This document shows, one piece after another, positions 1 to 60,386 of a DNA stretch of 64,000 nucleotides. Numbering within the stretch: the first letter of the stretch is position 1; each line of letters starts with the position of its first letter. Made by a program: the position numbers and the translations under genes. This DNA comes from Escherichia coli (lineage in GTDB: Bacteria > Pseudomonadota > Gammaproteobacteria > Enterobacterales > Enterobacteriaceae). The DNA lies in the NCBI RefSeq assembly GCF_009931435.1, contig NZ_CP043414.1. One strand, 5' to 3'. Under the pieces are notes generated by a model that was given only the letters and a program-made list of their open reading frames with translations, made no database searches and was not told the DNA's origin.

Positions 1-1104
1 GCGGAAGAGAAAAGCCTCGAAACGCTGACCCGCACCATCACTGAAACCAGCGATCAACAGGTCAGTTGGGAAACCATTCCGCTGATCGAGCCCATCAGTT
101 TAAGCCTCGGTTACAAGCTGGTGGCGCTGGTGGACAAAGCGCAGGGCAACCCGCTCACCCAGCGTATTCGCGGCGTGCGGCAGGTGATTTCCGACGGCAA
201 CGGCGTGCTGCTGCCGGAGATCCGCATTCGGGAAAACTTCCGCCTCAAGCCCAGCCAGTACGCCATTTTCATCAACGGCATTAAGGCTGATGAAGCGGAT
301 ATTCCGGCGGATAAACTGATGGCCCTGCCCTCCAGCGAAACCTACGGCGAGATTGACGGCGTGCTGGGGAACGACCCGGCGTACGGGATGCCGGTGACCT
401 GGATTCAGCCCGCGCAGAAGGCGAAGGCGCTGAATATGGGGTATCAGGTGATCGACAGCGCCAGCGTAATTGCCACGCATGTGAATAAGATTGTGCGCAG
501 CTATATTCCTGATTTGTTTAACTATGACGATATTACTCAGCTGCATAACCGTTTGTCGTCAATGGCACCGCGCCTGGCAGAGGATTTGAGTGCGGCGCTG
601 AATTACAGCCAGTTGCTGAAAGTGTACCGGGCACTGCTGACCGAAGGCGTTTCCCTGCGCGATATCGTCACCATCGCCACCGTGCTGGTCGCCAGTAGCA
701 CCGTCACCAAAGATCATATTCTGCTGGCGGCCGATGTGCGCCTGGCACTGCGGCGCAGCATTACCCATCCGTTCGTTCGCAAGCAGGAGCTGACGGTGTA
801 TACGCTGAATAATGAGCTGGAAAATCTGCTGACCAACGTGGTGAATCAGGCGCAACAGGCCGGCAAAGTGATGCTCGATAGCGTGCCGGTTGACCCAAAT
901 ATGCTCAACCAGTTCCAGAGCACGATGCCGCAGGTGAAGGAGCAGATGAAAGCGGCAGGTAAAGACCCGGTGCTGCTGGTGCCGCCGCAGCTGCGCCCGT
1001 TGCTGGCGCGTTATGCGAGGTTATTTGCGCCGGGGTTGCATGTGCTGTCGTATAACGAAGTGCCGGACGAGCTGGAGTTGAAGATTATGGGGGCGTTGAG
1101 TTGA
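1..1104 (+). CDS. lfhA: FlhA-family flagellar export protein, C-terminal portion (Flag-2 LfhA-like); open at window start, may be a remnant
   Basis: ORF 121..1104 is in a frame that stays open back to base 1; translation resembles the FlhA cytoplasmic domain; sits next to yafL/dinJ as lfhA does in K-12. Confidence 0.6.
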   Translation, partial: AEEKSLETLTRTITETSDQQVSWETIPLIEPISLSLGYKLVALVDKAQGNPLTQRIRGVRQVISDGNGVLLPEIRIRENFRLKPSQYAIFINGIKADEADIPADKLMALPSSETYGEIDGVLGNDPAYGMPVTWIQPAQKAKALNMGYQVIDSASVIATHVNKIVRSYIPDLFNYDDITQLHNRLSSMAPRLAEDLSAALNYSQLLKVYRALLTEGVSLRDIVTIATVLVASSTVTKDHILLAADVRLALRRSITHPFVRKQELTVYTLNNELENLLTNVVNQAQQAGKVMLDSVPVDPNMLNQFQSTMPQVKEQMKAAGKDPVLLVPPQLRPLLARYARLFAPGLHVLSYNEVPDELELKIMGALS

Positions 1105-1187
1105 TTGAGGATTCTTTTCCATACTTTGCAGCACCTGACACCATTAATTGACGTCACACTGCAAAGAGACTACGATGACACCATACA

Positions 1188-1487
1188 ATGACGTCATGGA
1201 TTGATAGTATGATTAAGGTCAGCGCGCTAGGCTCTCGTCATAGAAAAACATTCGACGATGTAATGACGGAGCCGCCAAAATCTGGAATTAAATGGGATGA
1301 TGTTGTTGCTCTCATTAAAGCGGTGGGTGGATCAATAAAAAATAACAACGGCTCCAGACGAAAATTTCAGATTGGAACGACCAAATTCAGCACACATGAG
1401 CCGCATCCAAAGAATGTGATGGATAAAGGCGCAGTAGCAGGTCTTAAGGAGTGGTTTGTTAACTGTGTAGGGGTAGATTATGAATAA
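1188..1487 (+). CDS. HicA-like toxin (mRNA interferase family); true start may be the internal ATG at 1263
   Basis: Small protein with GSRRKF...HEPHPKN...GAVAGLKEW pattern that parallels HicA (GSHHIY...PHPKKDL); overlaps the downstream gene by 8 nt as in toxin-antitoxin operons. Confidence 0.45.
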   Translation: MTSWIDSMIKVSALGSRHRKTFDDVMTEPPKSGIKWDDVVALIKAVGGSIKNNNGSRRKFQIGTTKFSTHEPHPKNVMDKGAVAGLKEWFVNCVGVDYE

Positions 1488-1836
1488 AGCATCGAACATT
1501 ATCACAATTAAAGGTCAACCAGCCGCAGTGACATTTGAAGCCGATATCAACGCATTTCGCGGCAAGTTCCTCAATGTAAACGGTTATTGTGACTTTGTAG
1601 CCACAAGTATTGAGGCATTATATCGTGAAGGCGAAAGCGCTCTGGATGAGTGGATGGCGGATTGTGAAGAGGACGGTATTGCCCCTTTTCGTGAAGAAGA
1701 AGAGCAAAAACGCCTGACGCTTCGTGTGCCGCATCACATCGATTCGCGGCTGACCATCGTCGCCAGACAACATTCCATTTCAAAAAACCAGCTCATTATT
1801 GATGTCTTAGAACGTGAGTTTTCAGCCCAGATGTAA
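1480..1836 (+). CDS. HicB-like antitoxin with C-terminal ribbon-helix-helix region
   Basis: 118 aa; C-terminus LRVPHHIDSRLTIVARQHSISKNQLIIDVLE looks like a CopG/RHH DNA-binding motif; translationally coupled to the upstream small gene. Confidence 0.5.
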   Translation: MNKASNIITIKGQPAAVTFEADINAFRGKFLNVNGYCDFVATSIEALYREGESALDEWMADCEEDGIAPFREEEEQKRLTLRVPHHIDSRLTIVARQHSISKNQLIIDVLEREFSAQM

Positions 1837-1858
1837 ACAGGTCGTCAATATTACCCAT

Positions 1859-2608
1859 TTACAAAATCGTCTCTTCCGTCAAAATCCGCCGCGCGCCTAA
1901 AAAATGATCCTGCCAGAAAGGTTCAGCTAACCGACTTACCCGAATGGTTTCCCCGGTGCGCGGCGACTCGATAAACTGACCGTCTCCCAGATACACGCCC
2001 ATATGGTCGGCAATCTCGCGGCTGTGAATATGGAAAAACAGCAAATCTCCCCGGCGCAGGTCGTTATTTGCCACAATGGTTGCCCGACGGTAGTGATACA
2101 TCTCATTGGCCGTGCGCGGGAGTTTCGCCTCGAGGATCTTGTTGTAGGCATAAAAAACCAACCCGCTACAGTCGAAGCCTTTATCAGGCCGCGTACCTCC
2201 CCAGACGTAAGGCTTACCAAGCTGCTGCTCCAGACGGTGAATCGCTACTTCGGTGATGTTATGCAGATGGTCGCTGCTTAAGAAATGGTTGTTTTCCGCC
2301 AGCGCCTGCCAATGTTTATCGCTCAACTTCAACGGTGCAGGGAACCACTCAGGATGCTGTTTTATCTGCTCCCGGTTGTGCTGGCGCAGCGCCCTTCTGC
2401 TTTGTGCATCGCCTTCCACAATGTAGCTGGCCTGTTTTTTCAGATGCGCGTGGTATCGCTTTAGCAATCGCGTACGGTTTTGCATCCGCTGGCGGGCGGC
2501 GTAGCTGAAAGAGATATGTGATGCGGTGGCGCTGGCAAATGAAGAAAACGGCAAGCAAAGCAACAATAATCCCGACAACACAAAAGAGGGAATCGACGGC
2601 AAAGACAT
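1859..2608 (-). CDS. yafL: NlpC/P60-family lipoprotein peptidase YafL
   Basis: ORF 1859..2668; start moved to the internal Met at 2608 (249 aa, MSLPSIPSFV signal); C-terminal Cys/His region typical of NlpC/P60; conserved position. Confidence 0.8.
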   Translation of the reverse strand: MSLPSIPSFVLSGLLLLCLPFSSFASATASHISFSYAARQRMQNRTRLLKRYHAHLKKQASYIVEGDAQSRRALRQHNREQIKQHPEWFPAPLKLSDKHWQALAENNHFLSSDHLHNITEVAIHRLEQQLGKPYVWGGTRPDKGFDCSGLVFYAYNKILEAKLPRTANEMYHYRRATIVANNDLRRGDLLFFHIHSREIADHMGVYLGDGQFIESPRTGETIRVSRLAEPFWQDHFLGARRILTEETIL

Positions 2609-2785
2609 TCTCAATAATGGCTGGTCATGCATTGATGTTGCAGTGTATCCCGGCCCGTACCTGAACAAACTTAATAAACCATTATTATAAAATTAATAAA
2701 TATATTTCAGTTAATTATGTAAAAACATCCGTTTATTAAATTACTCATGGATTGTCGTTGTTGCTCATTTGAGCTACAATTCAAG

Positions 2786-2801
2786 CTGAATAAATATACA
2801 G
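2786..2801 (+). promoter_or_regulatory. Candidate LexA (SOS) box upstream of dinJ
   Basis: ctgaataaatatacag matches CTG-N10-CAG about 17 nt upstream of the dinJ start. Confidence 0.5.
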
Positions 2802-2817
2802 CACAGGAGATACCCCA

Positions 2818-3078
2818 ATGGCTGCTAACGCGTTTGTTCGCGCCCGAATCGATGAAGATCTGAAGAATCAGGCGGCGGACGTACTGGCCGGGATGGGGCT
2901 GACCATCTCTGACCTGGTTCGCATAACCCTCACAAAAGTCGCGCGTGAAAAGGCATTGCCGTTTGATTTACGCGAGCCTAATCAATTAACCATTCAATCA
3001 ATTAAAAACAGCGAAGCTGGCGTTGATGTTCATAAGGCCAAAGACGCCGATGATTTATTTGATCAATTAGGAATTTAA
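2818..3078 (+). CDS. dinJ: DinJ antitoxin
   Basis: 86 aa; MAANAFVRARIDEDLKNQA... matches DinJ; directly followed by yafQ. Confidence 0.9.
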   Translation: MAANAFVRARIDEDLKNQAADVLAGMGLTISDLVRITLTKVAREKALPFDLREPNQLTIQSIKNSEAGVDVHKAKDADDLFDQLGI

Positions 3079-3080
3079 AT

Positions 3081-3359
3081 ATGATTCAAAGGGATATTGA
3101 ATACTCGGGACAATTTTCAAAGGATGTAAAACTTGCACAAAAGCGTCATAATGATATGAATAAATTGAAATATCTTATGACGCTTCTTATCAATAATACT
3201 TTACCACTTCCAGCTGTTTATAAAGACCACCCGCTGCAAGGTTCATGGAAAGGTTATCGCGATGCTCATGTTGAACCGGACTGGATCCTGATTTACAAAC
3301 TTACCGATAAACTTTTACGATTTGAGAGAACTGGAACTCACGCGGCGCTATTTGGGTAA
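3081..3359 (+). CDS. yafQ: YafQ toxin (RelE-family mRNA interferase)
   Basis: 92 aa; starts 3 nt after the dinJ stop; sequence matches YafQ. Confidence 0.9.
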   Translation: MIQRDIEYSGQFSKDVKLAQKRHNDMNKLKYLMTLLINNTLPLPAVYKDHPLQGSWKGYRDAHVEPDWILIYKLTDKLLRFERTGTHAALFG

Positions 3360-3514
3360 AGCCCGCTTCCGATGAAATTTGTAAACCCTGCGCCGACAGG
3401 CTTGCGTAAAACTCTTTTGGTGATAATGTGAGCCTTCCAAATCCAGACTATTCCGATTTGGGATCCATTTTGCCGTCCTGGCGTGTGTAACCGTTTTATC
3501 AAGGAATAAGCAGT

Positions 3515-4255
3515 ATGCGTAAAATCGCATTAATTCTTGCGATGTTGTTGATCCCGTGCGTTTCGTTTGCCGGTTTGCTGGGCAGCAGTAGCTCGACCAC
3601 GCCAGTGAGCAAAGAGTATAAGCAGCAGTTGATGGGCTCCCCTGTCTACATCCAGATCTTCAAGGAAGAGCGCACTCTCGATCTCTACGTCAAAATGGGT
3701 GAGCAATATCAGCTGCTCGACAGTTATAAAATCTGTAAATATTCCGGCGGATTAGGGCCTAAACAGCGTCAGGGCGATTTCAAAAGCCCGGAAGGGTTTT
3801 ATAGCGTCCAGCGTAATCAGTTAAAACCAGACAGCCGTTACTACAAAGCGATTAATATTGGATTCCCCAATGCTTATGACCGTGCGCATGGTTATGAAGG
3901 GAAATACCTGATGATTCACGGCGATTGTGTTTCCATCGGCTGCTACGCGATGACCAATCAAGGTATTGATGAGATCTTCCAGTTCGTTACTGGCGCGCTG
4001 GTGTTTGGTCAGCCAAGCGTGCAAGTGAGTATTTACCCGTTCCGCATGACCGACGCCAACATGCAGCGCCATAAATATTCCAACTTTAAGGACTTCTGGG
4101 AGCAACTGAAGCCGGGCTACGACTACTTTGAACAAACCCGTAAGCCACCGACCGTTTCTGTGGTCAATGGTCGTTACGTGGTCAGCAAGCCGTTAAGCCA
4201 CGAAGTGGTGCAGCCACAGCTGGCATCAAACTACACGCTCCCCGAGGCAAAATAA
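3515..4255 (+). CDS. yafK: L,D-transpeptidase-fold periplasmic protein YafK
   Basis: 246 aa with signal peptide and a YkuD-like HGDCVSIGC active-site motif. Confidence 0.85.
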
Positions 4256-4993
4256 GCGCCATTCGCCTGGCATAATCTTTTGCCAGGTTTCATTGCCCGT
4301 CAGCGGCTGTGTCGCAATCACCGTGACCACATCATTCGGTGTGGTCTGCGAGCTGAAGTCGATTTCCACATCCTGATCCAGCAACGTTGCCACGCCAAAC
4401 GGCGCGCGGCGGGTGATCCAGTGCAGATTGGTCGAGCAATACGCCATTACATAGCGTCCGTCCGAAAGTAGCATGTTGAAAACGCCCTTCTGCCGCAGTT
4501 CATCCGCCAGTGAGGCGATATATTTAAACACTGCCGCCATGTTGCCTGGTGTGCGCGGGTAACGCTGTGTTAATTTATGCAGCAGCCAGCAAAAGGCTTT
4601 TTCGCTGTCGGTTTCACCTACCGGACGGAAGTTGCCGGTTTCCAGTGACTTGTACCCCGTCAGTTGCCCGTTATGGGCATAAGTCCAGTTGCGTCCCCAT
4701 AACTCGCGGGTAAACGGGTGAGTATTTTCCAGCGCCACCTCGCCCCGATTGGCCTGGCGAATATGAGCCACCACCGAACAGGATTTTATCGGGTAGTCCT
4801 GGACAAGTTTGGCGATGGGGGAATTAAAGCTGGGTTGTGGATCTTTAAATGTGCGACAGCCTTTACCTTCGTAAAAGGTAATGCCCCAGCCATCTTTATG
4901 TGGCCCGGTTCCACCACCACGCTGCACCAGACCGGTGAAACTAAAGCAGATATCGGTAGGGACGTTAGCGCTCATCCCGAGCAATTCGCACAT
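4226..4993 (-). CDS. yafJ: Class II glutamine amidotransferase-like protein YafJ
   Basis: ORF 4226..5008; start moved to the ATG at 4991-4993 (MCELLGMS...), preceded by GGAGG; N-terminal Cys nucleophile typical of the family. Confidence 0.85.
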
Positions 4994-5045
4994 GGGTAAC
5001 CTCCACAACAGCGGGAGCGCATGGCCCCCGGCGAAGATTGATTTA

Positions 5046-5200
5046 AGAATTTTCAGGTCGGATGCGGCGTGAATGCATTATTCGGCCTACGGTTCGGGTA
5101 CAGATTTGTAGGCATGATAAGACGCGTCAGCGTCGCATCAGGCATCAGCGCACAAGTGCCGGATGCGGCGTAAACGCCTTATCCAGCCTACGCCAGACTT
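5046..5200. repeat. REP/BIME cluster (about three REP units) between yafJ and gmhA
   Basis: Repeated gccggatgcggcgt(g/a)aa(c/t)gc...ggcctac palindromic units typical of enterobacterial REP elements. Confidence 0.6.
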
Positions 5201-5777
5201 ACTTAACCATCTCTTTTTCAATTAACTGGATCAGGATATGGATCACTTTAATGTGGATCTCCTGAATGCGGTCGGCATAACCAAAGTGCGGAACGCGAAT
5301 TTCAATATCCGCCGTGCCAGCCATTTTGCCGCCATCTTTACCGGTCAGGGTGATCACTTTCATCCCCTTCTCACGCGCCGCTGCGATCGCTTTGATCACG
5401 TTTGCAGAGTTACCGGAGGTAGAGATCCCCAGCAATACATCGCCTTCGCGACCTACCGCTTCAACGTAGCGGGAGAAAATATCATTGAAACCGAAATCAT
5501 TACCGACGCAGGAAATATGACTAACGTCAGAAATGGCAATCGCCGGATAGCCCGGACGGTTTTCACGGTAGCGCCCCGTCAACTCTTCGGCAAAGTGCAT
5601 GGCGTCGCAATGGGAACCGCCATTACCGCAGGAAAGCACCTTACCACCGGCTTTAAAGCTATCTGCTAACAGGACCGCCGCGCGCTGAATGGCGTGAATA
5701 TTGGCGTCATCTTTTAAAAAGTTAGCCAGCGTTTCCGCCGCTTCGTTCAGTTCGTTACGAATAAGATCCTGGTACAT
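5199..5777 (-). CDS. gmhA: Sedoheptulose-7-phosphate isomerase GmhA
   Basis: ORF 5199..5939 trimmed to the internal ATG at 5775-5777, giving 192 aa [17 protein letters not shown]... which matches GmhA. Confidence 0.95.
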
Positions 5778-6016
5778 GAGGATATCCTTCAGCATAAATG
5801 TAATAGACAAAATGCAGTGTACCGGATACCGCCAAAAGCGAGAAGTACGGGCAGGTGCGATGACCAGGACTTTTTGACCTGAAGTGCGGATAAAAACAGC
5901 AACAATGTGAGCTTTGTTGTAATTATATTGTAAACACATTGCTAAATGTTTTTACATCCACTACAACCATATCATCACAAGTGGTCAGACCTCCTACAAG
6001 TAAGGGGCTTTTCGTT

Positions 6017-8461
6017 ATGATGATTTTGAGTATTCTCGCTACGGTTGTCCTGCTCGGCGCGTTGTTCTATCACCGCGTGAGCTTATTTATCAGCAGTCTG
6101 ATTTTGCTCGCCTGGACAGCCGCCCTCGGCGTCGCTGGTCTGTGGTCGGCGTGGGTACTGGTGCCTCTGGCCATTATCCTCGTACCGTTTAACTTTGCGC
6201 CTATGCGTAAGTCGATGATTTCCGCACCGGTATTTCGCGGTTTCCGTAAGGTGATGCCGCCAATGTCGCGCACTGAAAAAGAAGCGATTGATGCAGGCAC
6301 TACCTGGTGGGAAGGCGACTTGTTCCAGGGTAAGCCGGACTGGAAAAAGCTGCATAACTATCCGCAGCCGCGCCTGACCGCTGAAGAGCAAGCGTTTCTC
6401 GACGGCCCGGTAGAAGAAGCCTGCCGGATGGCGAATGATTTCCAGATTACTCATGAGCTGGCGGATCTGCCGCCGGAGTTGTGGGCGTACCTTAAAGAGC
6501 ATCGCTTCTTCGCGATGATCATCAAAAAAGAGTACGGCGGGCTGGAGTTCTCGGCTTATGCCCAATCTCGTGTGCTGCAAAAACTCTCCGGCGTGAGCGG
6601 GATCCTGGCGATTACCGTCGGCGTGCCGAACTCATTAGGCCCGGGCGAGCTGCTGCAACATTACGGCACTGACGAGCAGAAAAATCACTATCTGCCGCGT
6701 CTGGCGCGTGGTCAGGAGATCCCTTGCTTTGCACTGACCAGCCCGGAAGCGGGTTCCGATGCGGGCGCGATTCCGGATACCGGGATTGTCTGCATGGGCG
6801 AGTGGCAGGGCCAGCAGGTGCTGGGGATGCGACTGACCTGGAACAAACGCTACATTACGCTCGCGCCAATTGCGACCGTGCTTGGGCTGGCGTTTAAACT
6901 TTCCGACCCGGAAAAACTGCTGGGTGGCGCAGAAGATTTAGGCATTACCTGTGCACTTATCCCGACCACCACGCCAGGCGTGGAAATTGGTCGTCGCCAC
7001 TTCCCGCTGAACGTACCGTTCCAGAACGGACCGACGCGAGGTAAAGATGTCTTCGTACCGATCGACTACATTATCGGCGGACCAAAAATGGCCGGGCAAG
7101 GCTGGCGGATGCTGGTGGAGTGTCTCTCCGTGGGGCGCGGCATCACCCTACCTTCCAACTCAACCGGCGGCGTGAAGTCGGTGGCGCTGGCAACGGGCGC
7201 GTATGCGCACATTCGCCGTCAGTTCAAAATCTCTATCGGTAAGATGGAAGGGATTGAAGAGCCGCTGGCGCGTATTGCCGGTAATGCCTACGTGATGGAT
7301 GCTGCGGCATCGCTGATTACCTACGGCATTATGCTCGGTGAAAAACCTGCCGTGCTGTCGGCTATCGTTAAGTATCACTGTACCCACCGTGGGCAGCAGT
7401 CGATTATTGATGCGATGGATATCACCGGGGGTAAAGGCATTATGCTCGGTCAGAGCAACTTCCTGGCACGAGCTTACCAGGGCGCACCGATTGCCATCAC
7501 CGTTGAAGGGGCCAACATTCTGACCCGCAGCATGATGATCTTCGGTCAGGGAGCGATTCGTTGCCATCCGTACGTGCTGGAAGAGATGGAAGCGGCGAAG
7601 AACAATGACGTAAACGCGTTCGATAAACTGCTGTTCAAACATATCGGTCACGTCGGTAGCAACAAAGTTCGCAGCTTCTGGCTGGGCCTGACGCGCGGTT
7701 TAACCAGCAGCACGCCAACCGGCGATGCCACTAAACGCTACTATCAGCACCTGAACCGCCTGAGCGCCAACCTCGCCCTGCTTTCTGATGTCTCGATGGC
7801 TGTGCTGGGCGGCAGCCTGAAACGTCGCGAGCGTATCTCGGCACGTCTGGGGGATATTTTAAGCCAGCTTTACCTCGCCTCTGCCGTTCTGAAGCGTTAT
7901 GACGACGAAGGCCGTAATGAAGCCGACCTGCCGCTGGTGCACTGGGGCGTACAGGATGCGCTGTATCAGGCAGAGCAGGCGATGGACGATTTACTGCAAA
8001 ACTTCCCGAACCGCGTGGTTGCCGGGCTTCTGAATGTGGTGATCTTCCCGACCGGACGTCATTATCTGGCACCGTCTGACAAGCTGGATCATAAGGTGGC
8101 GAAGATTTTACAAGTGCCGAACGCCACCCGTTCACGTATTGGTCGCGGTCAGTACCTGACCCCGAGCGAGCATAACCCGGTTGGTTTACTGGAAGAGGCG
8201 CTGGTGGATGTGATTGCCGCCGACCCAATTCATCAGCGGATCTGTAAAGAGCTGGGTAAAAACCTGCCGTTTACCCGTCTGGATGAACTGGCGCATAACG
8301 CGCTGGCGAAGGGGCTGATTGATAAAGATGAAGCCGCTATTCTTGTGAAAGCTGAAGAAAGCCGTCTGCGCAGTATTAATGTTGATGACTTTGATCCGGA
8401 AGAGCTGGCGACGAAGCCGGTAAAGTTGCCGGAGAAAGTGCGGAAAGTTGAAGCCGCATAA
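6017..8461 (+). CDS. fadE: Acyl-CoA dehydrogenase FadE
   Basis: ORF 5939..8461 trimmed to the ATG at 6017, giving 814 aa [14 protein letters not shown]...; N-terminal membrane segment plus acyl-CoA dehydrogenase body. Confidence 0.95.
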
Positions 8462-8469
8462 TTGAATAA

Positions 8470-8494
8470 CGGAGCCGAAAGGCTCCGTTTCTTT
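8470..8494. terminator. Hairpin plus T-run between convergent fadE and ivy
   Basis: cggagcc gaaa ggctccg followed by tttcttt. Confidence 0.5.
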
Positions 8495-8503
8495 ATCCGC
8501 TAA

Positions 8504-8977
8504 TTATTTAAAATTAAAGCCATCCGGATGGTTTTCCAGGCTGCCGGTCAACGCCGCGAACAGCACCGTTTTACCATCAATAGAAAGCGCATCGTTCACA
8601 TTCAACCAGGTGAGTTTCTCTTGCGACGTTTTCTCATCAATGGTCGAGAACAGCCCCGTCATCTGATTAGATTTCTCGGACCACATCACAGCGATACGTT
8701 GCGAGCCACAGTCATGCGGTTTGCACGCGCTCATCACCTGATACGTCTCATCTCCCAACGTTACGGTTTGTGCAGGGGTATAAGTCCCGCCTTTCATCAC
8801 CCAGGCAGGCAGCTTATGCCCTTGTACCATCTGATTAAATGCAGCTTTGGTGGTTTCGCCCTTTGCAAGGCTGCTAATGGTTAAATCATCCTGCGCCATT
8901 GCACTGGTGGCGATGACCAGAGCGGCGACTGTCGTTATTGCCTTAAACATCATTCCTCCCGAGCTTATCCTGCCCAT
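8504..8977 (-). CDS. ivy: Inhibitor of vertebrate lysozyme Ivy
   Basis: 157 aa with signal peptide and the CKPHDCG loop characteristic of Ivy. Confidence 0.9.
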   Translation of the reverse strand: MGRISSGGMMFKAITTVAALVIATSAMAQDDLTISSLAKGETTKAAFNQMVQGHKLPAWVMKGGTYTPAQTVTLGDETYQVMSACKPHDCGSQRIAVMWSEKSNQMTGLFSTIDEKTSQEKLTWLNVNDALSIDGKTVLFAALTGSLENHPDGFNFK

Positions 8978-9130
8978 GTTATTAACCTCCTAAAGCCTGG
9001 CGATAACACGATAATTTGCAAATCAGATATTTCCAATATCAGCATTTGTTATCAATTTATTCTGCGCTAAGGCAACTGCCTGATAAGGTGTTAGAGTTAT
9101 AAAACCCTTCACATAAAGGAGTTGTACACC

Positions 9131-9901
9131 GTGCCTGGTTTGAAGATTACGCTTTTGCAGCAACCACTGGTGTGGATGGATGGTCCTGCCAACCTGCGCC
9201 ATTTTGATCGTCAACTAGAAGGTATTACCGGGCGCGATGTGATCGTTCTACCGGAGATGTTTACCAGCGGCTTTGCCATGGAAGCGGCCGCTTCGTCGCT
9301 AGCACAAGATGACGTAGTGAACTGGATGACAGCCAAAGCGCAGCAGTGCAATGCGTTGATTGCAGGCAGTGTTGCATTACAAACGGAGTCTGGTACGGTT
9401 AACCGCTTTTTGCTGGTTGAACCGGGCGGCACGGTACATTTTTATGATAAGCGTCATCTGTTCCGAATGGCAGATGAGCATCTGCATTATAAAGCGGGCA
9501 ATGCGCGAGTGATTGTGGAATGGCGCGGCTGGCGTATTTTGCCGCTGGTGTGCTACGACTTACGTTTTCCAGTGTGGTCGCGCAATCTCAACAATTATGA
9601 CCTCGCCATCTACGTCGCCAACTGGCCTGCACCGCGCTCTCTGCACTGGCAGGCATTGCTGACAGCCCGCGCGATTGAGAATCAGGCGTATGTGGCGGGA
9701 TGCAATCGCGTCGGCAGCGATGGCAACGGCTGCCATTATCGCGGTGACAGCCGGGTGATTAATCCACAGGGCGAGATTATCGCTACTGCCGACGCGCATC
9801 AGGCAACGCGCATTGATGCGGAGCTGTCGATGGCGGTGTTAAGGGAATATAGAGAAAAGTTTCCGGCATGGCGGGATGCGGATGAGTTTAGGTTGTGGTG
9901 A
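9131..9901 (+). CDS. yafV: Nitrilase-superfamily omega-amidase YafV
   Basis: ORF 9122..9901; likely GTG start at 9131 (256 aa); carbon-nitrogen hydrolase fold with catalytic Cys in the VCYDLRFP region. Confidence 0.9.
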   Translation: MPGLKITLLQQPLVWMDGPANLRHFDRQLEGITGRDVIVLPEMFTSGFAMEAAASSLAQDDVVNWMTAKAQQCNALIAGSVALQTESGTVNRFLLVEPGGTVHFYDKRHLFRMADEHLHYKAGNARVIVEWRGWRILPLVCYDLRFPVWSRNLNNYDLAIYVANWPAPRSLHWQALLTARAIENQAYVAGCNRVGSDGNGCHYRGDSRVINPQGEIIATADAHQATRIDAELSMAVLREYREKFPAWRDADEFRLW

Positions 9902-10029
9902 GTGGGGGTTGTGTTTAGGGCCGGGGAGAGTTGGGGTATGACTACGAAAGCCCGCTCTCCTGCGACCACTTTTATCATAGGAGTGTGGAAGTGCTTTTCC
10001 ATCAATCGCGATGACGTCTCAGGGAAAGA

Positions 10030-11103
10030 TTACGAAAGCCCGCTCCCCGCAAGGACTGACGCCAGATACTTTCTGTCCATGGCTGCTTTTCGCATCTTAC
10101 GTCTTAACCCTGCCTTGAATACCTTATCATTCGTCAAAATATTAATTGCGATGTGCCGTATCCCTGAAAATAATTCTGCTGCATTTCCTCTTCTTATTTT
10201 GCAGTCGTCTTCATTCATTACCACGTCCAGACGCCAGTGCAGCTTATTCTCCACGTGCCAGTGGTTTCGGATTGCTGTGGCGAACTTCTCTGCGGTTAAA
10301 TCAGCAGAACTGATATAATATCTGACCGTCATTTCTGGCTCTTTCTTTTGTTCTGCTATTATTGACCGAAAGGAGACTGCCACGCATAATTTCTTCAGAC
10401 CTTTCCATTCAAACGTGAAATCAATAAGTTCATCAGGGACATCGCAAACAATGTGAAGACGGATTTCTTCTCTGCCGTGACTCTTTTCACTAATTGCGTA
10501 ACTGTCATGCTCTGGATTATTTAATTCTTTCAGCGGAAATTTTTCCTCGAAGCCTTTATTTAGCCGCCCCTGGTTTCCTTTTACAGCGAATAAATAATCA
10601 CCTCCCTGTTTTTGTATCTTCTCTGCAATATCTTTCTGGCAACCCATCGCATCAGTTGTGATGATTTTTCCTTTAATATCCAGCATGTTAAGAAGTTCTG
10701 GGATAGCTGTAATCTCATTGGATTTCTCATCCGTCTTGATCTGTCCGATGACCAGACTGTGCATTGTTGAGAACGCACTAATGACATGAATCGCTCCCCT
10801 GCGGCGACTCTTGTCATAAGAGTGCCGGAGCGTTTTTCCATCAATTGCAATGACGCCTTTATCATCTGAAGAATGGCAGTCACGCATCCAGTTAATAAAG
10901 CACTCGTGAAATTTTGCAGGACTGATACAGGATACAACTCTGGCAATGGTATCGTGAACAGGAATACCATTTTCAAAATCACCATATTGCTTCAAAAAAT
11001 CGAGATGTGTTTCCCCAAAATCCTCTATATCTTCCCAACCTTCTGCACCCGAAATAACGGCGCAAATAGTCAACAGTAGAATATCCGATAATTTATGTTC
11101 CAC
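10030..11103 (-). mobile_element. H-repeat-associated (ISAs1-family) transposase, the H-rpt element classically found at the distal end of E. coli Rhs elements
   Basis: 357 aa protein with DDE-type transposase features, strongly similar to the E. coli H-repeat proteins (YhhI/YbfD type); located directly downstream of the Rhs array. Confidence 0.8.
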
Positions 11104-11295
11104 TTTCTAGGCTTGTCTGTAATCGGGGATAATAGAAATATGTTCCATCAATTTTTTAAGTTCCATTTTGTTCTCCTTAATTATGTAAGGAGTATTTGAT
11201 CATGTATAAGCAATAAAAAACAGCTTCAGGTAATGAGGAATATCTCAATTTTTAAACATAAAATGCGAATTGTTTAGTACAAAAAAGCAGCGTTA

Positions 11296-11416
11296 CGTGA
11301 TCTTTCCCTGCCAGCCCCTCCGGGTTGACCTGCTCCGTCACCCGCAGAACCCTGCACAATATCCAGTCCCTTGCAGGTCATGTCACCCTGCCGCGCCGCC
11401 GGTTTTCCGCTCATGG
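11296..11416 (-). pseudogene. Vestigial rhs 5' end (start codon plus about 80 nt) fused to a short internal rhs fragment
   Basis: Bases 11340-11413 nearly match the first 70-plus nt of both rhs genes (compare 16134-16207 and 22269-22342), and are preceded by ccctccgggttgacctgctccgtcacccg, which also occurs inside rhs at about 15060. Confidence 0.55.
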
Positions 11417-11546
11417 TTTATTCCTTTTCTTTTACCTTACATGGCCATACAAATAGTTACCTATACTGTCTTTGAATATTGCCCTATCATTTAAAGCCCA
11501 CCTAATTTTTGCGACAGCAAAGGGATTTCTTTTTTAATCCAATCTA

Positions 11547-11951
11547 TCATTTCATTTTTTTAAAACATACGTTAATGCCATTCACACTTCCACATTCACC
11601 AAAAGCATCAAAATAAATTTCACATTTATTGTTGCCTTTCGAAATGATGCTAACCCCCCATCTTATATTGTTATATTTTTCTTTTCTGAAATACTTCATT
11701 TGCAATAAATCAATTATCTTACCCGCATAGAGATCGCTAAGTTCATTCACCACCACTTTATATCTGTATATTTCATTAAGACCTTCCTTGCTAAGCGGAA
11801 CTAACGTGGTAACATACGATGGAAGATTAACTACCTCTATCGTTTTCACGCTATCTATTCCACACAATTCATTCACTCGCCCCATCCCCAATACCGAACC
11901 AGAAAATAGAGACAATAAAACCATCAAATATTTCATCATAAAAAACCTCAC
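11547..11951 (-). CDS. Putative Rhs immunity protein (RhsI) for the rhs-A C-terminal toxin; has a signal peptide
   Basis: 134 aa, AT-rich, starts at the rhs-A stop codon; N-terminus MKYLMVLLSLFSGSVLG looks like a Sec signal peptide; position is that of an immunity gene. Confidence 0.55.
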   Translation of the reverse strand: MRFFMMKYLMVLLSLFSGSVLGMGRVNELCGIDSVKTIEVVNLPSYVTTLVPLSKEGLNEIYRYKVVVNELSDLYAGKIIDLLQMKYFRKEKYNNIRWGVSIISKGNNKCEIYFDAFGECGSVNGINVCFKKMK

Positions 11952-14900
11952 TATTCTGGCGTACCCGTTATTGTCATCGTCTGCAACGGTCCATCCACCC
12001 GATAAAAAGGCAGTCCACTATGAGCTCCTCTGACACACTCATCTAAAGTTTTCGCCGCACGCGATTCAATTATTGTAATAACCCTTGCCTCTTCTTTATT
12101 ATCATATTTCTTATCCGTCCGACTTAAAAGAGCCATGAAATTTTCTTTATCAAGAAGGTAATACTGTGCATGTGCAAACTCATGCCCCAAACCTAATGCA
12201 GGCGATTGTGATTTCGAGTTTAATTCAGTTGAACAAAATAAAGACGCTCTACTATTCCAATATATCGTCATATTATTCGAATTAAATCTACCATTGGTTC
12301 CTTCAATATACTCTATATTTATAGTTTCTTCAGAGCTTGATAAAAAATCTATAGCATCTTTCATTCGTGAATCTTTTTCTAAATACTTAACAGCCTGATT
12401 AAAATCACTTGGATCACCATTAACCTCGAATTTTAAACCCAAAGAATCTATAAACCGAACAGGGTTTAATGGATATTTATACAGATTCCATTCACCTCTT
12501 AGCCCGATTGGATCCTGCGTGATATACCTCCCCTGCAACGGGTCATAGTACCGGTGACGGTTGTAGTACAGCCCCGACTCCTCATCATACTGCTGCCCTG
12601 GCAGACGGTACGGCTGTTGCAGGTGCTCCGGGTTTTCCTCTCCCAGCAGGTTTCCCCACTCGTCATACTCCCCGCGCCACGCCGTTTCCCCTTCCGGGCT
12701 GATAAGCGCCTGCGGCAGCCCACGGTGGTCACAGTGGTAAAGATGAAGTTTCCTCTCCGGGATGTATTCTTCCTCCATCTGGTTGTTCATCTGTTCCGCC
12801 GTCAGCCCGCACTGCGCAAGCCATGCTTCACTCTCCGCACTCACCGCACCCGCGCGCAGTTCCCGCTCCAGCCTCCCCAGCATCACCGACAGCTCCGCCG
12901 GGAGCGTCACACCCGTGTCCTCCTGCAACACCTCCGCCAGGCTACGGTGCCGCGCCTTCGCCTGTTCGCCATTCTCTGTTTCGATTCTCAGGAGCGGCGT
13001 GAAGCTTCCCGGCTGATAAATCGTCTGGATACGTGTGGTGCCGGTCTGTACCGTCGTCAGCCTGTCACCGTCCCACCCGTACCATGTCTCCTCCGGTTTA
13101 CGCGACAGCGACATCCATCCCGTCAGGTCACGCTCCCGCCGCCACACCCGTTTTCCCGTCCTGCGGCCCAGCGGGTCGTAAAGGTAGCGGCTCTCCACCT
13201 GCGGCTCGCCGTGCTGTATCCGCGTGTAGAACACCAGACGGTGCTGGCTGTCGTAATGGTAGTGGTGGGTGCGCTCGTCGTGCATCCGTATCACCCCTTC
13301 CGGGATACGGTCCGTCTTCTCCGCCAGCCTGCCGTATTCATCGTGGCGGTAGACATAGTGCGCATCTTCCGCGATGCGGTTATCCGGCCACGCCGTGAAG
13401 GTGCTGTCCGGGTGCAGTTCCGGGTCCGGCAGCCGGTTTCCTGCCGGGTCCGTCGCATACGGGATATCAATGTCCAGGTTCGCTGCCGTGGTGTGGACGC
13501 CCGTCAGCCTTCCCGTGTCGCTGTAACGGTACTCCCGGCTCTCCTGCGGGCCGCTGATACGCACCAGTTGCCCGTTATCATTCCACGTATACTCACGGTC
13601 AAGCTGCGGAAGGTTCAGGTGCCTGCTCCGGAGCTGGCCTGTGAGGGTGTATGTGCTGGTCAGTTCATATGCGGCATTACTGCCTGCCATGCTGCCGAAG
13701 CTGCGCACCGTCTCACGGTGCAGCCTGTCCCGCGTGTACTCGACCAGCGGCGTTCCGCCCAGCTTCATCCCCGCAAGATAACCGCTGCCATACGTCAGCC
13801 ACTCCACCGGCGGCAGACCGTCCGGCTCCTGACGGGTCGCCAGCCCCTGTTCGCTGTACGCGTGCCCCGTCTCATGCTCCCACAGCATCTCCCCCGTCTC
13901 CGGGTTCTCCACCGTCTGCCGTTCGCCCGTCAGGCGGCCCTTATCGTCATAGCCGTAGTGGACCGCCACACGGTGGCCTTCACTGGTATGGCTGAGGGTG
14001 GTTAACCACCCGTGCTCATCATACTGCCACTGCTCTGCCGCTTCGCCGTTCACCGTCCGGTGCGTGATGCGGTCCGACGCATCGTAGTGCCAGAGGGTGA
14101 TAAGTCCCTCGTCTTCACTGCGGACAAGCTGCCCTGTGGCGCTGTACCGGTAACGCTGTGTCCGTCCGTCAAAGCCGCGCTGCTCCGTCAGGCGGTCCAC
14201 CGGGTCATACAGGAACGTGGACTGGCTGCCGTTCTCATTAGTCAGCGTGGTGATGCGCCCGGCGGCGTCATACCCCATGCTGCGCGTCAGACCGCCCTGC
14301 GTGGTGCTGATAGCTTTACCCCACGCATCATACTGTGTCTCACTGCGGCTGCCGTTCGGGGCAATGATAGCGGTGAGGTCGCCTGCGGCGCTGTACTCAT
14401 AACGGGTTTCACGCCCCTGCACATCCTTCTGACTGACCAGTTGACCACGCGGGTTATAACTGCTGTAAGTGCTGATGCCTTCTTCCCGGTGAACCGCCGT
14501 CCTCTGCCCGTACCGGTCGTACTCATACCGTGTCGTGTACCCCGAGCAGTCCGTGAAGGCCAGCAGTTGACCGTAGCGGCTCCATGCCATCTGTTTTGTA
14601 CTGCCCGTCGCATCCTGTATCCCTGTCGGCAGCTCACTCGCCGGGTCATCATAGCTGTACCGCGTCGTCTCACCGCTGCGCGAGGTCTCCGCCGCCAGCC
14701 TTCCCTTCTCATCATACTCCCGGCTGCTGCGAAGCCCGTCCGGGTACGTCACTGACGTCACCTGCCGCTGGCTGTTGTAGCCATACCGCACCGTCCTGCC
14801 GTCCGGCCCCGTCACCGCCGTCACCGCGCCCGACGCCATATGCAGGCTGTACTCCGTCCGCCGCCCCGCCGCATCCGTCTGCGCCTTCAGCCTCCCCGCC

Positions 14901-16207
14901 GCATCATACTCGCTGCGGGTGATGCTCCCGTCCGCATGCTCCTTCTTCACCACCCGCTTCAGGCCACCCTCGCCTTCCGTGTACAGCACCTCCCGCCTGT
15001 TCAGGCTGTCCGTGATGGTCACACGGTCCTGCCCGTACTCAAAGCGGTAGGCCAGCCCCTCCGGGTTGACCTGCTCCGTCACCCGACCGGTATCATCATA
15101 CCGGTAGCGGCTCTCCGGCCTCCCCGCATAATGGTGCGCCACCATCCGCCCGGCGTGCTCCGCATCATAAGTAAACCCGCGCACCTGCGTCCCGCTGCGG
15201 TCATACACCGCCAGCAACTCACCGCTGGCCGTGTACGTGTAGCGCGCCAGCGGCGCAGTCGGCTGTTCATCCGGGTATGCCGGGTCGTGTGTCAGCCACA
15301 CCGCCTCCAGCCGGATACCGTTATCGGCACCGTATTCTGTACCGGCGGGCAGCGTGTCGGGGAAAACCTGAGAAGAGGAAACAGAACGGGGACCGGCAGG
15401 GGAAGATAAAGACGTGGCGCGCTGTTTACGGCAGGCTTCCGCCCGCTGCGCCTGCGTGCTCAGCAACAGGTGAAAACGACGGCCCGCACCGTCCGTCCCC
15501 CCCGTCACCGCGCCCGCCACGTCACCCTCCGCTGCCCGGTGAAAGGCCAGCGTCCGACCAAAGCCATCCACCACGCCCGTCAGCACCCGGTATGCGGGCG
15601 GTTCCGGCGGCAGCACCTCGTCCGCCCCCGGCACCCGCTCCGGCCAGCTGAGTATCCACCACGGCCCCTGAAGGCTGTTTGTCGCCAGGTACACATGCGG
15701 ACTCAGGCGAACATCTTCCGGCAGCACCTGCCAGAGCGCGCTTAGCGGCTGCGAACTGTGCTGCTCCGCCCCCCCGCCCCGCGCCAGCCAGAACGACTCG
15801 CTGCGGCTGTAGCTTATCTCGCCGGGAAACAGCGGCTCAAAGTGAATGCTCCTGCCGCCGTTGTCGTTGAGTATCAGTTCCCGCTCATGAACCTGTAAGC
15901 GGATATCGAAGGGCGCTTTCCAGCCGGGGCCGAACACGCCCACCGGCGCGGGCGTCCTGGTCCGGTAACTGCTGTAAGCGCGGGAAAGAATAAACGGCAG
16001 CGGGCCGGGCAGTGCCAGGTCCGTCTCGCCCGGCAGCACCTTCGCACCCAGCACCGGGTTCACCGGGTTAGCATAGGTAATCCCTCCCGGACACACCGAG
16101 CAGGCCACTCCCGTCGGCGCACCTATCAGCACCCCTGCTGAACCCTGCACAATATCCAGTCCCTTGCGGGTCATGTCGCCCTGCCGCGCCGCCGGTTTTC
16201 CGCTCAT
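11951..16207 (-). CDS. Rhs-family polymorphic toxin (distal copy) with PAAR-like N-terminus, YD-repeat shell and a C-terminal domain carrying an HExxH motif
   Basis: 1418 aa; N-terminal [16 protein letters not shown]...VACSVCPGG, many YD repeats, DPIGL demarcation motif, then a unique roughly 160 aa tail containing [10 protein letters not shown]. Confidence 0.9.
12502..16207 (-). repeat. Rhs core repeat, copy A (near-identical to 18628..22342; apparently perfect over about 12502..14060)
   Basis: Identical antisense ORFs at a fixed 6126 bp offset (12554..14005 and 18680..20131, etc.) and direct line-by-line comparison. Confidence 0.85.
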
Positions 16208-16330
16208 GGTTTATTCCTCTTCCTCTGAATAAACTTATTTTTGATGCACTAATGATTTTCAAAAGAGATTTATATTTAACGACAATTCAGCACTTTTAAT
16301 GTAAAAGATCCCCGGCTGAATGATATTCAC

Positions 16331-17299
16331 TCATTGTTTGTTATCAGAAAGTGTTTTATACAGCGGCACATATCCCACGTCTTCCACAAGACTTTGCCCC
16401 TGAGGGCTTAAAAACCAGTCCACTAGTTTTTGTGTTTCCGGTGTCGGCTTTTCGCGGGTGACCATGTAGGCATCCACCACATACGGATAAGTACCGTTGC
16501 GGATATTCTCCACCGTTGGTGCAATACCATTTATTGCCAGCAGCTTAAGATTTGGGCTTATATCCTTATTCATCTGTGTGACATAATAGCGGAAGGTGTA
16601 ACCAATTGAAGGCTGCGTATTCCGGTAGGCAATTACTTTGGTTAACACTCCATTCATAAGGCTTACTTCTGTAGATGTTCTGGCGGGTAGCATCGGTGTC
16701 TCTTTCATCACCTTTGCCAGCATCACCGTCTGGCTACCGGAATCTTCCGGACGCTGCCAGACCTGAATGCGCTCATCACTGCCACCAACCTGACTCCAGC
16801 GGGTGATTTTACCGCTGAAGATATCCCGAACCTGCTGTTCAGTAAAAGAACTGACCGGATTACTGGCGTTAACGATAAAAACAAAGGCTTCGTGGGCGAA
16901 GGGGGTATAAACCAGTTTCACCCCGGCATCGGCAGCCCGTTGTTTTTGTCCTGCGGAAGGCTGGGCAACAAAAATAACATCGGCCTGGCGCTTTATGAGA
17001 TCATTATAGGCTTCTGGTGTACGAGTCGGATACATATAATTCAAACCCGGATCTTGATGGTTATCCCCGGGGATCAAATATCGGTAAGCTGAAGCATACA
17101 GTGGATATAACGCGGTTGCACCACATACCCGGGGCCATTTATTCGAGTTATCAGTGTAGCGTAAAGTGGGTTCTCCTCGTATATTGGTTTTCTCCCAACT
17201 CACTGTTTCTTTTACGCTGTTATCGCCCCCGCCGTCTACACATCCTGACATTAATACCGTCATATAAAATAATACTGGTAACAGGCCCACCCTACGCAT
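16331..17299 (-). CDS. PstS-like (phosphate-binding-protein fold) lipoprotein; start uncertain, ORF extends to 17365
   Basis: 344 aa ORF; probable start MRRVGLLPVLFYMTVLMSGC with lipobox; AT-rich; lies between the two Rhs modules. Confidence 0.6.
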   Translation of the reverse strand: MRRVGLLPVLFYMTVLMSGCVDGGGDNSVKETVSWEKTNIRGEPTLRYTDNSNKWPRVCGATALYPLYASAYRYLIPGDNHQDPGLNYMYPTRTPEAYNDLIKRQADVIFVAQPSAGQKQRAADAGVKLVYTPFAHEAFVFIVNASNPVSSFTEQQVRDIFSGKITRWSQVGGSDERIQVWQRPEDSGSQTVMLAKVMKETPMLPARTSTEVSLMNGVLTKVIAYRNTQPSIGYTFRYYVTQMNKDISPNLKLLAINGIAPTVENIRNGTYPYVVDAYMVTREKPTPETQKLVDWFLSPQGQSLVEDVGYVPLYKTLSDNKQ

Positions 17300-17627
17300 A
17301 CAATGATTTAATAAATACGCCATATACCTCACTCTAAAATATTGATTATATAAATACATATGCATAATTATATTTACATCAAATTCTGAATGAACAATTT
17401 AAATTTAGAGAAAGTGAAATTTAATTTTTCGATACTTCCGCATACATATTCCCCTCGCTAAAAAATCATCATTCCACAATCAATCATTAATTACAACTCA
17501 ATATACATCATTTAACTTTCATTAAACTCGCAATTTATTATTACATTGTAGCCATTATGAACTGTCATCACGCACACACTCTACATACACATTAGAAACA
17601 ATATAACCCCATGAGCCATCCTCCGTT

Positions 17628-22342: not shown

Positions 22343-22417
22343 GAATCAATTCCTTCTGCTTTTAATATGGTTCATCTGGCCACTGCACCAGTTCCGTTTT
22401 AATTTTTTGCACCTGAC

Positions 22418-48541: not shown

Positions 48542-48618
48542 TGGCGGAACGGACGGGACTCGAACCCGCGACCCCCTGCGTGACAGGCAGGTATTCTAAC
48601 CGACTGAACTACCGCTCC
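48542..48618 (-). tRNA. aspV: tRNA-Asp (GUC)
   Basis: Reverse complement matches the 77 nt E. coli tRNA-Asp sequence. Confidence 0.97.
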
Positions 48619-56762: not shown

Positions 56763-56839
56763 TGGCGGAACGGACGGGACTCGAACCCGCGACCCCCTGC
56801 GTGACAGGCAGGTATTCTAACCGACTGAACTACCGCTCC
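56763..56839 (-). tRNA. aspU: tRNA-Asp (GUC), distal gene of the rRNA operon
   Basis: Same 77 nt sequence as the aspV copy. Confidence 0.97.

Positions 56840-60309: not shown

Positions 60310-60386
<77 letters not shown>

What the first reader, a model, noticed from the sequence alone, without database searches (positions are those of the whole stretch)
1..1104. FlhA-family gene fragment from a second flagellar system
The window opens inside a reading frame encoding an FlhA-type export-gate cytoplasmic domain, at the position of the K-12 lfhA relic of the Flag-2 lateral flagellar locus. Whether this strain keeps an intact Flag-2 system or only the relic cannot be judged from this window.
Basis: partly seen in the sequence, partly recalled or inferred. 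Interest (0 to 1): 0.3.

Follow-up and report, generated by a model that had tools for sequence, protein, structure and literature searches.

The report
Tail end of the lfhA gene
The window opens inside lfhA, the export-gate gene of E. coli's optional second (Flag-2) flagellar system, and in this strain it is most likely only the well-known dead remnant left after the rest of that system was deleted, so the finding is ordinary.

Summary
Window 1-1104 (+) is the last 367 codons plus stop of lfhA, the FlhA paralogue of the Flag-2 (lateral-type) flagellar locus. It lies at its usual chromosomal site, followed by hicAB, yafL and dinJ-yafQ.

The open question, intact system or K-12-type relic, cannot be read from the window. 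Base 1 is lfhA nt 991, about 600 nt inside the part that the relic also keeps. Identical lfhA alleles occur in both states.

Public relatives that match the window exactly are split:
- A draft assembly (0 mismatches in 10,149 nt) has full lfhA plus Flag-2 cluster 1.
- A complete chromosome (0 mismatches in 12,763 nt) has the lafU'-'lfhA deletion scar.

An indirect test points to the relic. Window-specific proteins (Rhs, VgrG, TssF, YafC) trace to a 5,133,009-bp chromosome. None of 13 informative Flag-2 proteins of the near-clonal intact siblings is recorded on a contig that long.

I conclude it is a relic pseudogene (about 0.85). This is a known, common polymorphism and of low interest.

One side observation is unexplained. 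The deletion junction is identical everywhere, yet it shows no linkage to SNPs 8-45 nt away.

The parts
1..1104 (+). 3' part of lfhA (Flag-2 FlhA paralogue): codons 331-697 plus stop. It covers the end of the linker and the whole cytoplasmic domain FlhA_C.
   Evidence: Open frame. FHIPEP 1.6e-79. TIGR01398 positions 327-677. 7amy residues 334-695. 100% identical to annotated flhA of NZ_ABACVG020000001.1.
67..69 (+). Trp codon aligned with Salmonella FlhA linker residue W354.
   Evidence: Alignment to 3a5i. Numbering offset and the role of the residue are from my own knowledge of Salmonella FlhA.
109..123 (+). GYKLV, aligned with the conserved GYXLI motif (Salmonella FlhA 368-372) at the start of FlhA_C.
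   Evidence: Alignments to 3a5i and 7amy. Sequence read directly.
373..477 (+). Asp (373-375), Tyr (382-384) and Thr (475-477), aligned with Salmonella D456, F459 and T490, the chaperone-binding dimple of FlhA_C.
   Evidence: Alignment to 3a5i. The role of these residues is from my own knowledge, not tested here.
1105..1208 (+). Intergenic region between lfhA and hicA. It holds a promoter-like site (1148-1176) and two 21-nt direct repeats (1136-1156, 1176-1196), each containing the palindrome TGACGTCA. Context only, not part of lfhA.
1209..1836 (+). hicA (1209-1487) and hicB (1480-1836), a toxin-antitoxin pair. It occupies the slot that rayT fills in K-12. Context only.
   Evidence: Pfam HicA_toxin and HicB. 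Annotation of L001. K-12 has rayT at this position.

Best explanation
Bases 1-1104 are the 3' 1.1 kb of lfhA, the FlhA paralogue of the Flag-2 (lateral-type) flagellar gene cluster. In an intact system LfhA forms the export gate. Its cytoplasmic domain, encoded here, would form the ring that docks chaperone-substrate complexes and the ATPase stalk. That role is inferred from homology to FlhA. In the genome this window was cut from, the gene is most likely the K-12-type remnant. In that remnant a deletion between short imperfect direct repeats in lafU and lfhA (junction ...CTGTTGACAATC|AACTTTATT...) has removed lfhA codons 1 to about 131, lfhB and the other roughly 40 Flag-2 genes. What is left is a promoterless 5'-truncated lfhA placed head to head with a truncated lafU beside dinB. 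On this reading the fragment does nothing in flagellar assembly. Its frame is still open. Shown: gene identity, domain content, chromosomal position, the anatomy of the scar in relatives, and the absence of sibling Flag-2 proteins from the source chromosome. Inferred: that the source has this same scar, and that the remnant has no function.
For: Identity and site.

Scar anatomy: about 76% of complete E. coli genomes with lfhA DNA lack the first ~381-390 nt, and lafU lies beside the remnant (K-12 annotation; four more relics). The junction is identical in 15 of 15 relic loci.

Nearest complete chromosome: CP057959.1 (L039) is identical to window 1-12763, including the ISAs1 copy, and collinear to 18461. 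It carries the 579-codon remnant, a 261-aa LafU and dinB directly upstream.

Frequency: the exact remnant ORF with this allele is on 103 contigs. The exact intact 697-aa protein is on 19.

Test on the source itself: window proteins Rhs2 (QHQ00991.1), VgrG (QHQ00992.1), TssF (QHQ00998.1) and YafC have a longest carrying contig of 5,133,009 bp, which I take to be the source chromosome. The exact Flag-2 proteins of the near-clonal intact siblings all have shorter longest contigs: LfhA-697 4,878,159; LfhB 3,052,742; LafU-307 4,737,856; LfiP 4,737,856; LfiM 1,093,523; LafK 4,736,822; LfiF 28,027; LfiI 511,363; LfgE 1,030,868; LfgK 4,736,822; LafB 1,030,868; LafS 4,878,159; LfiH none above 50 kb. 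That is 13 of 13 informative proteins absent from the source.

Literature: the lfhA-lafU deletion with direct repeats and the fhiA/mbhA remnants are described in PMC6993521 and PMC3032704.
Against: The upstream sequence of the source genome was never seen. That genome is missing from the contig index.

Draft assembly GCA_016664965.1 (L005/L011) is also 100% identical to window 1-10149. It has a full 697-codon lfhA plus lfhB, lfiRQPNM, lafK and lfiEFGHIJ. Its near-clone GCA_902709095.2 has the rest of Flag-2.

The only two RefSeq complete genomes with at least 99% identity to the fragment have intact lfhA.

CP057959.1 is not the source. It differs in Rhs1, Rhs2, VgrG, TssF and YafC.

The longest-contig test is negative evidence. 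It would fail if the source carried a third Flag-2 haplotype differing in all 13 proteins, or if the protein table were incomplete for that genome.
Confidence: 0.85

Rival explanations
1. The window cuts through a full-length, functional lfhA. On this reading the strain keeps a complete Flag-2 locus (lfhAB, lfiRQPNM, lafK, lfiEFGHIJ, lfgN-L, lafW-U), and the truncation is only an effect of where the window starts.
For: L005/L011 (GCA_016664965.1) is identical to window 1-10149 and has intact cluster 1 with no internal stops. Its near-clone GCA_902709095.2 differs by 5 mismatches in 18,304 nt and has clusters 2-3 at full length. Strain 2020CK-00188 is identical over window 1-3151 and has all core Flag-2 genes annotated as intact.
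Against: 13 of 13 informative Flag-2 proteins of these siblings are not recorded on any contig as long as the source chromosome, while four window proteins are. The remnant form of this allele is about five times more frequent (103 against 19 contigs). The relic chromosome CP057959.1 matches the window further than the intact draft does (12,763 nt against 10,149 nt, and it runs through the ISAs1 copy).
Confidence: 0.12
2. The remnant is not dead. On this reading the open 579-codon ORF is expressed as an N-terminally truncated FlhA-like protein that selection maintains for some other role.
For: The remnant frame is open in 15 of 15 relic loci sampled. dN/dS among alleles is 0.02-0.07 at dS of about 0.2. 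The chaperone-dimple residues and the GYXL(I/V) motif are kept.
Against: Relic alleles are identical to intact alleles of the same haplotype in five cases. The low dN/dS can therefore be inherited from the intact state and says nothing about selection on the remnant. The ORF begins in antisense lafU with no intergenic promoter region. No expression data were examined. PGAP annotates it as a pseudogene.
Confidence: 0.03
3. The fragment belongs to the primary flagellar flhA or to a non-flagellar type III secretion SctV gene (for example ETT2).
For: All are FHIPEP proteins and all hit the same Pfam model.
Against: The fragment scores 168 bits against Salmonella FlhA_C but 397 bits against V. parahaemolyticus FlhA. 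The FlhA model scores 259 bits against 126 bits or less for the SctV models. The neighbours are hicAB-yafL-dinJ, and in relatives lfhB-lfiR upstream, which is the Flag-2 site.
Confidence: 0

Closest known systems
E. coli K-12 lfhA (fhiA, b0229) pseudogene, the Flag-2 deletion remnant paired with lafU (mbhA)
   Same: Same chromosomal site. 94.9% nucleotide identity over window 1-1099 and 7 amino-acid differences in 367. The same 3' end of the gene is kept. The relic relatives of this window have exactly the K-12 junction.
   Different: This is a divergent allele: at most 95.4% identity to nearly all complete E. coli genomes, and only two at 99% or more. hicAB lies downstream where K-12 has rayT. 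The last residue is Ser rather than Met. Relic status is inferred here, not seen.
Intact lfhA of Flag-2-positive E. coli (for example strain 042; here 2020CK-00188, TST3, 2011C_4247)
   Same: The same gene. The 367 C-terminal residues are 100% identical to the 697-aa LfhA of 2020CK-00188 and GCA_016664965.1.
   Different: Those genomes keep codons 1-330, lfhB and about 40 partner genes. The source genome most likely does not.
FlhA of Vibrio parahaemolyticus (PDB 7amy) and Salmonella FlhA_C (3a5i, 6ai0)
   Same: The same domain along its whole length, the GYXL(I/V) motif, and Asp/aromatic/Thr at the chaperone dimple.
   Different: The fragment is much closer to the Vibrio protein (397 bits) than to Salmonella FlhA (168 bits). 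Linker residues E351 and D356 of Salmonella are Gln and Thr here. That 7amy is the lateral-system FlhA is my guess from the score and was not checked.

Membership tests
FHIPEP / FlhA family (flagellar export gate) | C-terminal cytoplasmic domain (FlhA_C, subdomains D1-D4) matching the family profile | tested here: met
   PF00771 at 1.6e-79, profile 313-656 of 657. TIGR01398 positions 327-677. Full-length alignment to solved FlhA_C structures.
FHIPEP / FlhA family (flagellar export gate) | N-terminal integral-membrane domain (about 330 residues) joined to FlhA_C | not testable with these tools
   This part lies upstream of the window. It is present in intact relatives (697 aa, TIGR01398 772.8 bits against a cut-off of 772.1). 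It is truncated by about 131 codons in relic relatives.
FHIPEP / FlhA family (flagellar export gate) | Flagellar rather than injectisome (SctV) subfamily | tested here: met
   FlhA model 259 bits against 126 bits for hrcV/SctV. PDB FlhA hits at 1e-48 or better against SctV hits at 1e-19 or worse.
Flag-2 lfhA (orthologue of E. coli 042 / K-12 lfhA) | Chromosomal position at the lfhA end of Flag-2, beside yafL-dinJ-yafQ, with lfhB (intact) or lafU'-dinB (relic) upstream | tested here: met
   The downstream side was read in the window. The upstream side was seen only in relatives identical to the window.
Flag-2 lfhA (orthologue of E. coli 042 / K-12 lfhA) | High nucleotide identity to annotated lfhA across E. 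coli | tested here: met
   5371 genomes cover at least 80% of the fragment at 93.8-100% identity.
K-12-type Flag-2 deletion relic | lafU'-'lfhA junction CTGTTGACAATC|AACTTTATT at lfhA nt ~391-396 | not testable with these tools
   The junction would lie about 600 nt upstream of window base 1. It is present in CP057959.1, which is identical to window 1-12763.
K-12-type Flag-2 deletion relic | Absence of the other Flag-2 genes from the genome | tested here: inconclusive
   Indirect test. 13 of 13 informative sibling Flag-2 proteins have a longest contig below 5,133,009 bp, while four window proteins have exactly 5,133,009 bp. This is negative evidence only.
Functional lateral flagellar system | Complete set of about 39 conserved Flag-2 genes without disruptions, and motility or expression | not tested
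   Gene sets look complete in siblings. Function of Flag-2 in E. coli has not been shown experimentally according to PMC3032704.

The most novel reading that the evidence does not exclude
The roughly 40-kb Flag-2 deletion may not be a single ancient accident. It may instead be a recurrent, precise excision at one imperfect 12-bp direct repeat (CTGTTGACAATC in lafU, CTGATGATCATC in lfhA). Five deeply divergent lfhA haplotypes each occur in both the intact and the deleted state with zero differences over 1,695 nt. The junction is identical in 15 of 15 relics. SNPs only 8-45 nt from the junction show no association with the state. The evidence equally allows the alternative: one old deletion whose flanks are repeatedly overwritten up to the edge of the heterology by recombination with intact donors.
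Probability: 0.3. Interest if true: 0.4.

Novelty: already known. Interest (0 to 1): 0.1.

Why it matters
It matters little. lfhA, the Flag-2 locus and its lfhA/lafU deletion remnant have been described since Ren et al. 2005 and were surveyed across Enterobacterales in 2020 (PMC6993521). This window adds only another allele, from a divergent lineage, probably cryptic clade I. The practical lesson is that neither the 3' lfhA sequence, its dN/dS, nor the neighbouring hicAB/rayT cassette tells whether a strain has Flag-2. Only the junction or the partner genes do. The side observation would deserve a population-scale look, because it bears on how large accessory loci are lost or switched in E. 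coli. That observation is the lack of linkage between the deletion and immediately adjacent SNPs, together with intact and relic forms occurring inside one near-clonal lineage.

Tried and rejected
1. Allele identity as a marker of state. The fragment is 100% identical to an intact-locus genome. But identical alleles occur in both states: K-12 relic = TST3 intact, L005 intact = L039 relic, and three further pairs. Rejected.

2. hicAB against rayT downstream as a marker. Both cassettes occur with both states. Rejected.

3. dN/dS or frame integrity as a marker. dN/dS is 0.02-0.07 for all pairs, and all relics keep an open frame. Uninformative.

4. Finding the source contig by exact protein look-up. 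The FadE allele is too common (14,976 blocks), although it did return CP057959.1 by luck. The window's Rhs1, Rhs2 and TssF are "not on record" in the contig index. The YafC look-up gave only further relatives of unknown Flag-2 state.

5. NZ_CP057959.1 is not in the E. coli genome collection.

6. A literature search for the genome by size or accession found nothing. Ren et al. 2005 (PMC545627) is not held.

7. Using the NAQ-series accessions to argue that the assembly sharing the window's rare TssF is Flag-2-positive. The accession spacing suggests two different assemblies, so I dropped the argument.

8. De novo deletion in the clade I clone. It is not required, because L044/L045 relics are identical to L039 for 521 nt left and at least 1,786 nt right of the junction, so ordinary homologous import would leave no trace.

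Full report
**What is in the window**

Frame 1 of the + strand is open from base 1 to a stop at 1102-1104, giving 367 codons.
- The product matches Pfam FHIPEP at E=1.6e-79, over profile positions 313-656 of 657.
- It matches the NCBIfam FlhA equivalog over positions 327-677 of 678 with 259 bits, against 126 bits for the SctV model.
- Its best solved relative is Vibrio parahaemolyticus FlhA (7amy, residues 334-695, E=6.5e-118). Salmonella FlhA_C structures match at about 1e-48 and injectisome SctV proteins at 1e-19 or worse.

The alignment to Salmonella FlhA_C shows several conserved features:
- a Trp at the position of W354
- GYKLV at the GYXLI motif
- Asp, Tyr and Thr at the positions of D456, F459 and T490

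The roles of those residues come from my knowledge of Salmonella FlhA and were not tested here. The fragment therefore encodes the end of the linker and the whole cytoplasmic domain of a flagellar FlhA paralogue.

Downstream lie hicA (1209-1487), hicB (1480-1836), yafL, dinJ-yafQ, dpaA, yafJ, gmhA and fadE.

**Which gene it is**

The DNA is present in 5378 of 5426 complete E. coli genomes and is annotated as FlhA at the Flag-2 / K-12 lfhA site. In the closest RefSeq genome, strain 2020CK-00188, the gene is 2094 nt (697 aa). There it is the last gene of lfiMNPQR-lfhBA, at one end of a complete Flag-2 locus that runs to lafU beside dinB. Window base 1 is nt 991 of that gene. In K-12 the same site holds a 1719-nt pseudogene "missing N-terminus", placed head to head with lafU, with rayT instead of hicAB downstream. 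The literature describes exactly this:
- a roughly 44-gene Flag-2 locus in E. coli 042
- fhiA (lfhA) and mbhA (lafU) remnants in K-12 and B
- a deletion between lfhA and lafU flanked by direct repeats
- 76 of 100 surveyed E. coli strains carrying only the remnants (PMC6993521; PMC3032704; PMC2808357)

**Why the window cannot settle intact against relic**

Using the first 990 nt of the intact gene as a query, 5380 genomes match but only 1291 (24%) cover it. The others start at nt 382-391, with lafU beside them. The junction is ...CTGTTGACAATC|AACTTTATT... It lies between an imperfect 12-bp direct repeat (lafU CTGTTGACAATC, lfhA CTGATGATCATC; 9 of 12 matching, exact ATC). It is identical in K-12, in a relative of this window, and in 15 of 15 relic loci examined. 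The relic therefore keeps lfhA from about nt 394, and the window begins 600 nt further in.

None of the features inside the window discriminates between the two states:
- All relic copies keep the frame open.
- dN/dS among alleles is 0.02-0.07 whatever the state.
- hicAB and rayT each occur with both states.
- Five distinct alleles occur in both states with no difference over 1,695 nt.

**The lineage**

The fragment's allele is unusual. Only two complete RefSeq genomes reach 99% identity or more, and the rest are at most 97.9%. Against 2020CK-00188 the window is identical for 3151 nt and then mosaic, with blocks of about 2.4% divergence. Exact matches of some proteins to E. coli TW10509 suggest cryptic clade I. 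That assignment is from my memory of that strain.

**Relatives that match the window exactly are split**

- Looking up the intact 697-aa protein returned GCA_016664965.1 (L005). It is 100.000% identical to window 1-10149, up to the end of its contig inside an ISAs1 copy. It carries full lfhA, lfhB, lfiRQPNM, lafK and lfiEFGHIJ without internal stops. Its near-clone GCA_902709095.2 (5 mismatches in 18,304 nt) has lfgN-L and lafW-U at full length.
- Looking up the window's FadE returned CP057959.1 (L039), a complete 5.21-Mb chromosome. It is identical to window 1-12763 including the ISAs1 copy and collinear to 18461. The only differences are clustered in an Rhs gene. It has the relic: a 579-codon remnant ORF, a 261-aa LafU and dinB. 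Its flanks equal those of the intact siblings right up to the junction.

Both states therefore exist inside one near-clonal group.

**The source genome**

The window's own Rhs1, Rhs2 and TssF are not in the contig index. In the protein table, however, the following have a longest carrying contig of 5,133,009 bp:
- Rhs2 (QHQ00991.1)
- VgrG (QHQ00992.1)
- TssF (QHQ00998.1)
- YafC

I take that contig to be the source chromosome. The same table gives shorter longest contigs for the exact Flag-2 proteins of the intact siblings.

| Protein | Longest contig (bp) |
|---|---|
| LfhA-697 | 4,878,159 |
| LfhB | 3,052,742 |
| LafU-307 | 4,737,856 |
| LfiP | 4,737,856 |
| LfiM | 1,093,523 |
| LafK | 4,736,822 |
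| LfiF | 28,027 |
| LfiI | 511,363 |
| LfgE | 1,030,868 |
| LfgK | 4,736,822 |
| LafB | 1,030,868 |
| LafS | 4,878,159 |
| LfiH | none above 50 kb |

Only LfiR was uninformative. Several of these alleles are widespread in the lineage (LfiP on 217 contigs, LafK on 144, LfgK on 138), so a Flag-2-positive member would be expected to share at least some. The remnant ORF with this allele is also about five times more frequent than the intact protein (103 against 19 contigs).

I therefore conclude that the source carries the relic, with confidence about 0.85. The remaining doubt is that this is negative evidence and that the upstream DNA was never read.

**How it works**

In an intact system LfhA would be the export-gate protein, and the domain encoded here would form the docking ring for chaperone-substrate complexes. 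That is inferred from homology to FlhA. In the relic the first roughly 131 codons, the operon upstream and every partner gene are gone. The remnant begins in antisense lafU with no intergenic promoter region. The most likely answer is that it does nothing. A retained function for the open 579-codon ORF cannot be excluded. But its low dN/dS is explained by alleles shared with intact loci.

**Unexplained side observation**

The junction is invariant. Yet polymorphic sites at lfhA nt 402, 414, 420, 429 and 441 (8-50 nt from it) show at least seven haplotypes among relics, nearly all matched by an intact allele. There are two readings:
- the same deletion has arisen repeatedly
- one old deletion has had its flanks overwritten up to the border of the heterology

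Within the window's lineage, ordinary homologous import is feasible, since other relics are identical to L039 for 521 nt left and at least 1,786 nt right of the junction. The lafU side was not examined across phylogroups.

**Verdict**

The object is a known gene at a known polymorphic site, most likely in its common deleted form. Interest is low.

Noticed in passing
upstream of the window; L039 3376-3396, L009, L030-L046; lfhA nt 391-441: The Flag-2 deletion junction is identical in 15 of 15 relic loci. Even so, five divergent lfhA haplotypes occur in both intact and relic state with 0 differences over 1,695 nt. SNPs 8-45 nt from the junction show no association with the state. This points either to recurrent precise deletion or to conversion up to the heterology border.
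   Followed up: partly
window 1136-1196: Two 21-nt direct repeats (TGACACCATTAATTGACGTCA and TGACACCATACAATGACGTCA) lie upstream of hicA. Each contains the palindrome TGACGTCA, and they overlap a promoter-like site (1148-1176). They look like operator sites for the hicAB promoter.
   Followed up: no
window 1209-1836: A hicAB toxin-antitoxin pair sits between lfhA and yafL, where K-12 and many other strains have rayT (a REP-associated tyrosine transposase). The two cassettes are alternatives at one site, and each occurs with both Flag-2 states.
   Followed up: partly
window 3152-13390: Against the closest RefSeq genome (2020CK-00188) the window alternates between identical blocks and blocks of about 2.4% divergence (3676-6500, 8000-10000, 12500-13390). 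This is a typical recombination mosaic.
   Followed up: partly
window 10020-11310: An ISAs1-family insertion sequence lies downstream of yafV. Related strains carry three or more further ISAs1 copies inside the Flag-2 variable region, and short-read contigs break at these copies.
   Followed up: no
window 11951-24559: Two Rhs genes (11951-16207 and 18071-22342, both on the - strand) flank a PstS-family gene (16331-17299). A VgrG gene (22418-24559) and a type VI secretion cluster follow. Differences from CP057959.1 cluster at 12764-12896 and 13451-13472 inside Rhs1, as expected for conversion between Rhs copies. Rhs2 and VgrG are unique to one chromosome in the protein table.
   Followed up: partly
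window 48542-48618 and 56763-56839; 60192-60386: Two identical 77-nt tRNA-Asp genes are present. tRNA-Ala and tRNA-Ile lie in the spacer of a ribosomal RNA operon at the right end of the window.
   Followed up: yes
L011 12885-16766 against L010: In the Flag-2 variable region of GCA_016664965.1, three gene calls are shorter than in its near-clone GCA_902709095.2 (189 against 214 aa, 127 against 166, 246 against 280), although the two differ by only 5 substitutions. These are possible nonsense changes or assembly errors in cargo genes.
   Followed up: no
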